A stretch of 4,742 bases of DNA, taken from the IMG/VR virus record IMGVR_UViG_2740892258_000009; one strand, written 5' to 3'. Numbering within the stretch: position 1 is the stretch's first letter; every line of letters begins with the position of its first letter. Origin of the DNA: a virus (taxonomy: Duplodnaviria; Heunggongvirae; Uroviricota; Caudoviricetes). Positions 901-961 of this stretch are shown here, one piece after another. Below the pieces are notes generated by a model. The model was given only the letters and a program-made list of their open reading frames with translations, was not told the origin of the DNA and did not search any database. Both the position numbers and the translations under genes were made by a program.

Positions 901-926
901 TTACTACTGTTGTGGATATCCAGATT
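901..926. repeat. Right arm of the 26-bp inverted repeat bracketing the zinc-ribbon gene
   Basis: TTACTACTGTTGTGGATATCCAGATT begins 2 nt after the TAG stop (897-899). It is the reverse complement of 347-372 at 22/26 positions. GTT flanks both outer ends (344-346 and 927-929). Confidence 0.8.
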
Positions 927-937
927 GTTAAAGAGCT
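925..937 (-). promoter_or_regulatory. boxA-like (NusB/NusE-type antitermination) element on the minus strand
   Basis: The minus strand reads AGCTCTTTAACAA, matching 12/13 of the E. coli rrn-type boxA consensus TGCTCTTTAACAA as I remember it. It lies about 110 nt left of the OL-like palindrome, so it would sit in a leftward early transcript. It is preceded on that strand by the imperfect hairpin 956-939. Confidence 0.4.
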
Positions 938-938
938 A

Positions 939-961
939 AGCGTCCTGTAGGGCGCTTTTTT
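939..961 (+). terminator. Rho-independent terminator of the zinc-ribbon gene
   Basis: AGCGTCC-TGTA-GGGCGCT forms a 7-bp stem (one G-U pair) with a 4-nt loop, followed by a run of six T (956-961). On the minus strand the G-U becomes a C-A mismatch, so the structure favours the plus strand. Confidence 0.8.

What the first reader, a model, noticed from the sequence alone, without database searches (positions are those of the whole stretch)
925..956. rrn-type boxA preceded by a hairpin on the minus strand, downstream of OL
The minus strand reads AGCTCTTTAACAA (937-925), matching 12/13 of the rrn boxA consensus as I recall it (TGCTCTTTAACAA). A 13-mer with at most one mismatch is very unlikely by chance in a window this small. 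It lies where a nutL-like element would be for a leftward transcript starting near OL. The order is hairpin then boxA, as in rrn leaders, rather than boxA then boxB as in lambda nut sites. There is also no nutR-like element between the cro-like and cII-like genes (only 28 nt, no boxA). In addition, no credible N-like gene follows. The DNA that follows is antisense to the zinc-ribbon gene. This suggests a rearranged or non-canonical antitermination arrangement, or a relic.
Basis: partly seen in the sequence, partly recalled or inferred. Interest (0 to 1): 0.5.

Follow-up and report, generated by a model that had tools for sequence, protein, structure and literature searches.

The report
rRNA-style boxA module in prophage leader
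The leftward early transcript of this E. coli prophage carries a conserved copy of the signal that ribosomal RNA operons use to load host Nus factors, next to a one-way terminator and a long-range RNA helix that brackets a backwards-facing accessory gene; this probably lets phage transcription cross that gene without an N protein.

Summary
AGCTCTTTAACAA lies at 937-925 on the minus strand, about 100 nt downstream of the predicted pL/OL. Chance would give about 0.01 such matches in the window.

It is not a relic. The block GCTCTTTAA[C/A]AATCTGG is nearly invariant in 39 unique relatives. It occurs in 1015 of 5426 complete E. coli genomes and in at least eight other Enterobacterales genera, and no matched record annotates it as an RNA element.

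It is one piece of a fixed module:
- a plus-strand intrinsic terminator (938-957) that is deliberately weak on the minus strand;
- the boxA itself;
- a 5' arm (926-901) that pairs with a distal arm (372-347), looping out the roughly 550 nt that are antisense to a convergent cargo gene.

The helix shows compensatory changes and a 3:1 G·U bias for the pL strand, and it appears in folds of two divergent phages. The prophage has no N-like gene, no local boxB and no second boxA.

Best reading: an N-independent, rrn-type Nus-factor loading site. It would make pL transcription Rho-resistant across an untranslated antisense stretch and help the two arms anneal. No experiment supports this yet. I rate it a new variant of a known kind.

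The parts
1041..1072 (-). Predicted pL promoter overlapping the OL operator (TGCTACTTAAAGTAGCA, 1048-1064). -35 TTGATT at 1072-1067, 17-nt spacer, -10 CAACAT at 1049-1044 (alternatively CATAAT at 1046-1041). Predicted start near 1035.
   Evidence: The operator is an inverted copy of the OR operator at 3295-3311, and 1044-1089 is an inverted copy of 3270-3315 (D10 and I1). The promoter is inferred by analogy with the pR layout. The consensus scan did not call it.
958..1037 (-). pL leader RNA, conserved in SfV-like phages with different immunity regions
   Evidence: BLAST matches of SfV, SfII, SfIV, ST64B and others end at about 1026-1033. The anchor CAGGACGCCCACGAAGTAGCC is found in more than 100 unique viral contigs.
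938..961 (+). Intrinsic terminator of the convergent cargo gene: stem 938-945/950-957, loop UGUA, run of T at 956-961. It is strand-asymmetric. On the minus-strand RNA the same hairpin has a C·A mismatch and no U-tract.
   Evidence: Terminator scan. Folding energy is -12.1 kcal/mol on the plus strand against -7.5 on the minus strand. The G·U pair is kept in 35 of 39 variants, and 8 of 31 four-base loops are UNCG on the plus strand against 0 on the minus strand.
925..937 (-). rrn-type boxA, AGCTCTTTAACAA (core GCTCTTTAACAA at 936-925)
901..926 (-). 5' arm of the long-range helix (AAUCUGGAUAUCCACAACAGUAGUAA). It overlaps the last two A of boxA and lies in the 3' UTR region of the cargo gene.
   Evidence: Inverted repeat I2. 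RNAduplex, covariation counts and whole-transcript folds.
384..899 (+). Convergent cargo (moron) gene, 171 aa, zinc-ribbon-like, PHROG 1244, function unknown. The pL transcript is antisense to it.
347..372 (-). 3' (distal) arm of the long-range helix (UUAUUGUUGUUGGGGAUAUCCAGAUU)
   Evidence: The consensus TTGTTGGGGATATCCAGATTA is conserved in relatives and is found only where boxA is present.
318..342 (-). Second copy of the distal-arm motif (CUUGUUGUUGGGGAAUAACCAGGUC). In the MFE fold it pairs with the leader segment upstream of the hairpin, forming an outer helix.
   Evidence: Direct repeat D20. Folds of the window and of the Klebsiella phage.
49..272 (-). STnc100-like structured RNA that follows on the same transcript. 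It ends in a strong intrinsic terminator (stem 98-57, U-run 56-51) just upstream of yfdP.
   Evidence: Rfam RF02076 scores 40.3 bits, E = 2e-6, below the gathering score of 47. The same element is present in SfV. The terminator was read from the sequence.

Best explanation
The motif is a functional, N-independent, rrn-type boxA on the pL (minus-strand) transcript of an SfV/CPS-53-like lambdoid prophage integrated at argU. It is one part of a conserved three-part module that surrounds an accessory gene inserted backwards between pL and the rest of the early-left operon (yfdP to int).

Proposed sequence of events after induction:
1. RNA polymerase starts near 1035. It passes the hairpin at 957-938, which is a strong terminator only for the opposite strand.
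2. It transcribes boxA about 100 nt from the start. NusB-NusE(S10) bind boxA and, with NusA, NusG and SuhB, modify the elongation complex as at rrn operons.
3. The modified complex resists Rho while it transcribes about 550 nt of untranslated RNA antisense to the cargo gene.
4. BoxA stays tethered to the polymerase. This holds the adjacent 5' arm (926-901) at the RNA exit until the distal arm (372-347) emerges.
5. The two arms anneal into a helix of 25 base pairs (13 + 12, with one mismatch), like an rRNA leader-trailer helix. This loops out the antisense segment and may create an RNase III site.

Shown here: the sequence, its strand, its conservation, its co-occurrence with the other two parts, covariation in the helix, and the absence of N-type components.

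Inferred: the pL start site, Nus-factor binding, Rho resistance, chaperoned annealing and RNase III cleavage.
For: BoxA identity and constraint
- The match is exact to the rrnH leader core, and chance expectation is 0.01.
- In 39 unique relatives found by anchoring on the hairpin alone, positions 1-9, 11, 12 and 14 are invariant.
- The only common change is C/A at position 10. This is the same difference as between the E. coli rrn leader and the 16S-23S spacer boxA.
- The base before the G varies between A, C and T.
- Conservation runs on through AATCTGG(AT). This copies the rrnH spacer, GCTCTTTAAAAATCTGGAT.

Strand and context
- Of 102 unique loci anchored on the pL leader, 25 carry GYTCTTTAANA on the pL strand and none on the other strand.
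- 23 of those 25 are followed by a convergent ORF of at least 130 aa, from several unrelated protein families.
- SfV and the other loci whose first gene runs with pL lack boxA, the hairpin and the distal arm.
- BoxA, the hairpin and the distal arm co-occur: 21 loci have all three, 75 have none, Fisher p = 2e-17, not corrected for phylogeny.
- In L131, L134 and L169 the plus-strand terminator is replaced by a hairpin that is not a terminator, and the module sits mid-operon. BoxA is still present immediately before a convergent gene.

Long-range helix
- 85% of cells are paired, against 26-48% when the partner is slid by 1-3 columns.
- 11 of 20 pairs show changes on both sides. The covariation score is 0.191 against 0.112 in shuffles, with 0 of 500 shuffles reaching it.
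- One compensated example is GGAUGACU/AGUCAUCC in L054, L072 and L091.
- G·U pairs on the pL strand outnumber A·C cells 38 to 12.
- The pL-strand duplex is the more stable one in 29 of 36 arm pairs.
- The helix appears in both the MFE and the centroid folds of the 738-nt window transcript and of a Klebsiella phage that is 72% identical.

No N system
- There are no N-like Pfam or PHROG hits.
- The whole prophage has a single boxA, and its only annotated antiterminator is a separate protein placed like a Q-type late regulator.

Precedent
- BoxA alone protects untranslated CRISPR arrays from Rho (PMC7665894).
Against: - There are no transcript, binding or genetic data. The pL promoter is weak by consensus and the scan did not call it.
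- The C/G ratio of the antisense RNA is only modestly rut-like, with peaks of 1.3-1.5. Rho sensitivity is therefore assumed from the lack of translation.
- Several convergent ORFs in related loci have no boxA, for example L256 and L274. BoxA is therefore not obligatory for crossing a convergent gene.
- An inverted repeat gives the same covariation whether it acts as DNA or as RNA. The G·U bias rests on related sequences and on a G/U-rich distal arm.
- Against natural-sequence control windows the duplex energies stand out only moderately: Mann-Whitney p = 7e-4, with 22% below the 5th percentile of controls.
- rrn-type complexes are not known to read efficiently through intrinsic terminators. 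This module therefore does not explain passage of the strong terminator at 98-51.
- In the SfIV/Kati variants a small co-directional ORF of 68 aa starts 41 nt after the conserved block. There the RNA downstream of boxA is not wholly untranslated.
Confidence: 0.6

Rival explanations
1. The conserved block acts on the plus strand or as DNA, and its likeness to boxA is secondary. One version: it is the 3' UTR and terminator module of the cargo mRNA, which would also pair its 5' and 3' UTRs or give rise to a 3'-derived small RNA. Another version: the inverted repeats are boundary or recombination sites of an exchangeable gene cassette.
For: - The block always sits between the stop codon of a convergent gene and a terminator tuned for the plus strand.
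- The inverted repeats flank cargo genes that differ between loci, as cassette ends would.
- The distal arm doubles as the conserved CA-rich region just upstream of the cargo ribosome-binding site.
Against: - The invariant positions, and the single tolerated C/A change, are those of rrn boxA on the minus strand.
- BoxA persists where the plus-strand terminator is replaced by a hairpin that is not a terminator (L131, L134, L169).
- The motif is found only on the pL strand, 25 loci to 0.
- The G·U bias (38:12) and the duplex energies (29 of 36) favour the pL-strand RNA.
- There is no consistent target-site duplication, and the arms always abut boxA.
- No loci with the cargo in the flipped orientation were seen among the viral contigs.
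Confidence: 0.17
2. It is a lambda-type nutL that works with an unrecognised N-like protein encoded elsewhere in the phage, together with an unrecognised boxB.
For: - The position just downstream of pL is that of nutL.
- N proteins are small and diverge too fast for profile searches. Some phages encode the N-like gene in the rightward operon, for example mEp021 Gp17 (PMC11893012).
Against: - There is no local hairpin 3' of boxA. The next 26 nt form the arm of a long-range helix.
- There is no second boxA anywhere in the roughly 53 kb of prophage examined.
- No protein tested matches an N family.
- Loci in the same phage family that lack the convergent cassette lack boxA altogether. This would leave them with no nutL.
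Confidence: 0.08
3. BoxA acts negatively, as at suhB or hisG. Nus-factor binding would promote Rho termination or block translation, attenuating leftward transcription before the cargo gene.
For: - BoxA can enhance Rho-dependent termination, depending on context (PMC5725501; PMC12360218).
- In the SfIV/Kati variants boxA lies 41 nt before a small ORF that has a strong Shine-Dalgarno sequence.
Against: - In the window and in most variants no co-directional ORF follows boxA.
- The early-left genes, including xis and int, lie downstream and need to be reached.
- The association is with convergent genes and with a bracketing helix.
Confidence: 0.07
4. The match is due to chance, or it is a decaying relic of a former nut site.
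For: None beyond the absence of an N gene.
Against: - Chance expectation is 0.01.
- The block is nearly invariant across 39 unique variants, and the module is found in E. coli and at least eight other genera.
- It is present in 1015 of 5426 complete E. coli genomes.
Confidence: 0.02

Closest known systems
rrn operon antitermination signals: boxB-boxA-boxC of the leader, the boxA of the 16S-23S spacer, and the leader-trailer (RNase III) helices
   Same: - The boxA core is identical to the rrnH leader.
- Together with the following AATCTGGAT it matches the rrnH spacer at 18 of 19 positions. Some relatives match 19 of 19.
- A hairpin lies directly 5' of boxA.
- BoxA is followed by the upstream arm of a long-range helix that encloses several hundred nucleotides.
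- No phage protein appears to be needed.
   Different: - The enclosed RNA is antisense to a protein-coding gene, not a structural RNA.
- The helix starts inside the last two bases of boxA, rather than about 15 nt later at boxC.
- The 5' hairpin is really a terminator for the opposite strand.
- Binding of Nus factors, SuhB or S4 has not been tested.
[quoted passage not shown] 2020, PMC7665894)
   Same: A lone consensus boxA sits near the start of a long untranslated transcript, where Rho would otherwise terminate. No N protein is involved.
   Different: - The present case is in a prophage early operon.
- It is combined with a strand-asymmetric terminator and a bracketing helix.
- The untranslated stretch arises from a convergent gene.
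Lambda nutL/nutR with N protein
   Same: The position is just downstream of pL. There is a boxA that would recruit NusB and NusE. The likely purpose is to carry early transcription past termination signals.
   Different: - There is no boxB, no N and no nutR.
- The boxA is the full rrn consensus rather than the weaker lambda form CGCTCTTA (the lambda form is recalled from general knowledge, not checked here).
HK022 put RNA (cis-acting antiterminator RNA)
   Same: It is an N-independent solution in a lambdoid phage, placed just downstream of pL.
   Different: - There is no sequence or structural similarity.
- put acts directly on RNA polymerase without Nus factors.
- Some HK022-like contigs carry a put-like stem immediately followed by this same boxA 17-mer (L136, L184).
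Phage morons (accessory genes flanked by their own promoter and terminator)
   Same: The cargo gene at 384-899 has its own terminator, differs between otherwise similar phages, and sits between conserved backbone segments.
   Different: To my knowledge, the moron concept does not include a boxA and a bracketing helix on the opposite strand to let backbone transcription cross the insert.

Membership tests
rrn-type BoxA (NusB-NusE binding element acting without N) | Match to the gammaproteobacterial consensus GYTCTTTAANA | tested here: met
   GCTCTTTAACA at 936-926 on the minus strand. The consensus is taken from PMC5725501.
rrn-type BoxA (NusB-NusE binding element acting without N) | Lies on a transcribed RNA downstream of a promoter, in the sense orientation | tested here: inconclusive
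   It lies about 100 nt downstream of the pL predicted from OL/OR symmetry. The promoter scan did not call the site and no RNA data are available. The strand is consistent in 25 of 25 related loci.
rrn-type BoxA (NusB-NusE binding element acting without N) | Purifying selection on the boxA positions in homologous loci | tested here: met
   Twelve of the first 14 positions are invariant in 39 unique variants, while hairpin loops and downstream sequence vary.
rrn-type BoxA (NusB-NusE binding element acting without N) | Binding of NusB/NusE, recruitment of SuhB, and boxA-dependent resistance to Rho | not testable with these tools
   This needs ChIP, gel-shift or reporter assays.
rrn-type BoxA (NusB-NusE binding element acting without N) | BoxA adjoins the upstream arm of a long-range (leader-trailer) helix | tested here: met
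   Arms at 926-901 and 372-347. Covariation is shown and the folds.
Lambda-type nut site | A boxB stem-loop a few nucleotides 3' of boxA | tested here: not met
   No local hairpin is predicted downstream of boxA. That sequence pairs with 372-347 instead.
Lambda-type nut site | A phage-encoded N-like arginine-rich protein | tested here: not met
   There are no N-family hits in Pfam or PHROGs for the ORFs in and next to the window. The ORF following boxA in SfIV/Kati is acidic and not arginine-rich. N proteins diverge fast, so this absence is weak evidence.
Lambda-type nut site | A second nut site in the rightward operon | tested here: not met
   There is only one match to GCTCTTTAACA (at most one mismatch) in L002 plus L296, about 53 kb.
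Intrinsic (Rho-independent) terminator, for the hairpin at 938-957 | A G+C-rich stem followed by a U-tract on the terminated strand | tested here: met
   On the plus strand there is an 8-bp stem, -12.1 kcal/mol, followed by UUUUUUGUUG. The minus-strand version is weaker (-7.5 kcal/mol, C·A mismatch) and lacks a U-tract.
HK022 put antiterminator RNA | Two-stem put structure or sequence downstream of pL | tested here: not met
   There is no similarity between the window and the HK022 putL region. The Rfam scan of the HK022 region returned no family at all at E <= 1, so the STnc100 model does not match HK022.
STnc100 sRNA (Rfam RF02076), for the flanking element at 49-272 | Score at or above the family gathering threshold | tested here: inconclusive
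   40.3 bits against a threshold of 47, E = 2e-6, with a full-length match.

The most novel reading that the evidence does not exclude
Enterobacterial temperate phages may carry a portable 'insert-anything' slot that copies the whole rRNA-operon strategy. Its parts would be a one-way terminator, a consensus boxA that loads the host Nus/SuhB complex without any phage protein, and a leader-trailer helix. Together they would make a backwards-inserted accessory gene invisible to early-operon transcription, possibly by RNase III excision of the antisense RNA.

A more speculative corollary concerns lysogens. The cargo mRNA ends in a sequence complementary at 18 of 19 positions to the rrn spacer boxA region. 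It could therefore act as an anti-boxA RNA against host rRNA transcripts or against stray pL transcripts.
Probability: 0.35. Interest if true: 0.8.

Novelty: new variant of a known kind. Interest (0 to 1): 0.62.

Why it matters
- N-independent use of boxA is known for rrn operons, suhB, a ParE-like toxin gene in Citrobacter koseri and CRISPR arrays. In phage biology, boxA is taught as half of the N-dependent nut site.
- A consensus rrn boxA in a pL leader with no N would show that temperate phages also use the host rRNA antitermination and chaperone machinery directly.
- This one is present in about a fifth of complete E. coli genomes and is not annotated as an RNA element in any matched record.
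- The module suggests a general answer to an old question about morons: how a phage tolerates accessory genes inserted against the direction of an essential operon.
- It offers a small natural system, about 700 nt, for testing the proposed chaperone role of the Nus complex in annealing distant RNA segments. That role is hard to separate from ribosome assembly at rrn operons.
- It also flags a feature that genome annotation pipelines currently miss.

Tried and rejected
- HK022 put. I fetched the HK022 immunity region. No Rfam family matched it at E <= 1, so the STnc100 model gives no hit there, and BLAST found no similarity to the window. This idea was rejected.
- Orientation of the first ORF against boxA presence. 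Using the longest ORF in the first 450 nt gave a noisy table (Fisher p = 0.2), because short real genes were missed and spurious antisense ORFs were counted. I replaced it with ORFs of at least 130 aa and with motif co-occurrence.
- Duplex energy against natural control windows. This gave only moderate separation, because the arms are A+T-rich. I rely on register, position and covariation instead.
- C/G ratio as a rut predictor. It was not decisive.
- Invertible-segment idea. No contig had the cargo in flipped orientation directly after boxA. No site resembling a known invertase site was recognised by eye.
- Transposon-like cassette. There is no consistent target-site duplication next to the arms.
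- Matches in Electrothrix and Sutterella genomes. They lack the distal arm, and Rfam found no rRNA or tRNA in the stretches held, so their nature is unresolved.
- Literature. Full-text searches found no description of this element, of boxA in SfV-like phages, or of boxA paired with a bracketing helix in a prophage. The library is incomplete, and the SfV genome paper of 2002 could not be read.
- PADLOC and Pfam gave no function for the cargo protein.

Full report
**What the window is**

The first 3839 bases are identical to a prophage integrated next to tRNA-Arg in E. coli APEC O18 and IHE3034. The layout is lambdoid. Coordinates below give the larger number first for minus-strand features.
- A cI-type repressor (2531-3235/3292, minus) faces a cro-like gene (3342-3605, plus) across OR.
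- A ParA-like ATPase (1284-2360, minus) sits where lambda has rexAB.
- An OL region (1044-1089) is an inverted copy of OR (3270-3315). It includes the operator TGCTACTTAAAGTAGCA.
- Left of OL, on the minus strand, come in order:
  - a conserved leader (about 1037-958);
  - a hairpin (957-938);
  - the boxA-like 13-mer (937-925);
  - the antisense of a 171-aa zinc-ribbon ORF (384-899, plus);
  - an STnc100-like structured RNA (272-49; 40.3 bits, below Rfam's threshold of 47), which ends in a strong terminator.
- The early-left genes yfdP, yfdQ, yfdR ... xis, int follow.

AGCTCTTTAACAA is at 937-925 on the minus strand. With at most one mismatch to TGCTCTTTAACAA, shuffles of the window give 0.01 matches on average. 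The 12-nt core equals the boxA of the E. coli rrnH leader and fits the published consensus GYTCTTTAANA (PMC5725501). There is no other boxA in the window, nor in about 53 kb of the same prophage.

**It is conserved, and the pattern of conservation is that of boxA**

I anchored a scan of viral contigs on the hairpin only, so that the following sequence was free to vary.
- Thirty-nine unique variants had a boxA directly after the hairpin.
- Positions 1-9, 11, 12 and 14 never change.
- The one frequent change, C/A at position 10, is the difference between the E. coli rrn leader and spacer boxA.
- The preceding base varies between A, C and T.
- Conservation continues through AATCTGG(AT). The rrnH spacer reads GCTCTTTAAAAATCTGGAT, so some phage copies match it at 19 of 19 positions.
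- Hairpin loops and everything beyond about 22 nt vary freely.

The element occurs in SfIV, Kati, PhiR29/PhiR49 and a Klebsiella phage that is only 72% identical overall. It is found in 1015 of 5426 complete E. coli genomes. It is also present in Scandinavium, Edwardsiella, Symbiopectobacterium, Buttiauxella, Sodalis, Kosakonia and Citrobacter. No record annotates it as an RNA element.

**The hairpin belongs mainly to the other strand**

On the plus strand it is an 8-bp stem followed by UUUUUUGUUG, directly after the cargo gene.
- One stem pair is G·U on the plus strand and therefore C·A on the minus strand. This asymmetry is kept in 35 of 39 variants.
- Eight of 31 four-base loops are UNCG in plus orientation, and none in minus orientation.
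- Predicted stability is -12.1 kcal/mol on the plus strand against -7.5 on the minus strand.

The hairpin is thus a terminator for the convergent gene that is kept weak for pL transcripts.

**BoxA travels with a convergent gene**

I anchored on the pL leader, which many SfV-like phages share whatever follows it.
- Of 102 unique loci, 25 have boxA on the pL strand and none on the other strand.
- In 23 of the 25, a convergent ORF of at least 130 aa follows. These ORFs come from several unrelated families (144, 150, 155-171, 164 aa and others).
- In SfV and many others the first gene runs with pL, and boxA and the hairpin are absent.
- In L082 and L177 boxA lies farther from the leader but again just before the convergent gene.
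- In L131, L134 and L169 the module sits mid-operon, after a co-directional gene. Its plus-strand terminator is replaced by a hairpin that is not a terminator, yet boxA is retained immediately before a convergent gene.
- Some convergent ORFs have no boxA (for example L256 and L274). The element is therefore common but not obligatory.

**A long-range helix starts at the end of boxA**

The window's second-longest inverted repeat joins 926-901 to 372-347.
- Across relatives, the sequence right after boxA pairs with a conserved distal arm, GUUGUUGGGGAUAUCCAGAUUA. This arm lies 490-820 nt downstream, just beyond the cargo gene.
- The distal arm occurs only where boxA does: 21 loci have boxA, hairpin and arm, and 75 have none.
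- On a gapless alignment of 31 variants, 85% of cells pair, against 26-48% when the partner is slid.
- Eleven of 20 pairs have changes on both sides, and no shuffle reaches the observed covariation. Examples are U-A to C-G at pair 11 and GGAUGACU/AGUCAUCC in L054, L072 and L091.
- G·U pairs on the pL strand outnumber A·C cells 38 to 12. The pL-strand duplex is the more stable in 29 of 36 arm pairs.
- The helix is present in the MFE and centroid folds of the 738-nt window transcript (z = -4.9) and of the Klebsiella homologue. In both folds, outer helices join the leader to a second copy of the distal motif.

Caveats:
- The sequences are related and were selected for pairing.
- A DNA-level inverted repeat would covary in the same way.
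- Against natural control windows the energies stand out only moderately.

**No N-type system**

No ORF in or next to the window matches N families. There is no local boxB and no nutR. The only annotated antitermination protein is a separate gene placed like a Q-type late regulator.

**Interpretation**

[quoted passage not shown] The complex would do two things:
- protect them from Rho while they cross about 550 nt of untranslated antisense RNA, as boxA does for CRISPR arrays (PMC7665894);
- hold the 5' arm near the RNA exit so that it anneals with the distal arm, as proposed for the 16S leader-trailer helix (PMC4807359, PMC10250234).

RNase III cleavage of the helix is plausible but untested. 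The module does not explain how transcription passes the strong terminator at 98-51. This remains open.

**Rivals**

I considered four rival readings; their probabilities, with the evidence for and against each, are set out in the rival-explanations section:
- a plus-strand or DNA-level role for the block;
- a cryptic N system;
- a negative, suhB-like role;
- chance or relic.

**Novelty**

Searches of the available literature found no description of this element. It uses known parts (boxA, the Nus complex, a leader-trailer helix) in a new setting and combination. I therefore rate it a new variant of a known kind, of moderate to high interest and readily testable.

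Noticed in passing
window 49-272 (minus strand): An STnc100-like structured RNA (Rfam RF02076, 40.3 bits, below the threshold of 47) ends in a strong intrinsic terminator (stem 98-57, U-run 56-51). It lies between the cassette and yfdP on the pL transcript. It is present at the same place in SfV. 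How early-left transcription passes this terminator is unexplained. PGAP annotates a 'frameshifted hypothetical protein' over it.
   Followed up: partly
window 3839/3840 and 3963-4074: Relative to APEC O18, the window lacks 207 nt after 3839. It also carries a perfect 56-bp tandem duplication (3963-4018 and 4019-4074). Both changes alter the cII-like/YmfL ORF that starts at 3634.
   Followed up: partly
window 1284-2360 (minus strand): A ParA-like P-loop ATPase of 358 aa occupies the rexAB position between cI and OL. It has its own terminator (1276-1257) and weak hits to the PADLOC candidate system PDC-M28B. It may be a lysogen-expressed defence or exclusion gene.
   Followed up: partly
window 4672-4742: Four 15-bp-spaced repeats (TCAAAATCTGACGCA and variants) lie inside the replication-initiator (O-like) gene. 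They are probably origin iterons and encode an SKSDA peptide repeat.
   Followed up: no
L141, L144, L147, L154, L178 (T7-like contigs of about 39 kb); L136, L184 (HK022-like contigs): The identical 17-mer GCTCTTTAACAATCTGG lies just downstream of strong early promoters in T7-like phages. In HK022-like contigs it lies immediately after a put-like stem-loop. N-independent use of boxA may therefore be widespread in phages.
   Followed up: partly
L133, L166, L176, L189: In unrelated phage contigs the same boxA is followed by quite different 5' arms. Each of these has a near-perfect complement 240-700 nt downstream (duplexes of up to 26 bp). In L133 and L176 the helix encloses co-directional ORFs, so the boxA-plus-bracketing-helix design is not limited to convergent genes.
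   Followed up: partly
window 318-342 and 958-985: A second copy of the distal-arm motif (direct repeat TCCCCAACAACAA at 324-336 and 357-369 on the plus strand) pairs in the predicted fold with the leader segment upstream of the hairpin. BoxA and the hairpin would then sit in an internal loop between two long-range helices.
   Followed up: partly
L007 2288-2494 (Kati) and the same ORF in L005 (SfIV); L169 upstream gene: A small acidic 68-aa ORF with a strong Shine-Dalgarno sequence follows boxA in the SfIV/Kati variants. A homologue precedes boxA in L169. Its 3' end overlaps the convergent 144-aa gene.
   Followed up: no
L299, L306 (Candidatus Electrothrix), L307 (Sutterella): Exact matches to GCTCTTTAAMAATCTGGATATC occur outside Enterobacterales. 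They have no distal arm, and no rRNA or tRNA lies in the stretches held. Their context is unknown.
   Followed up: partly
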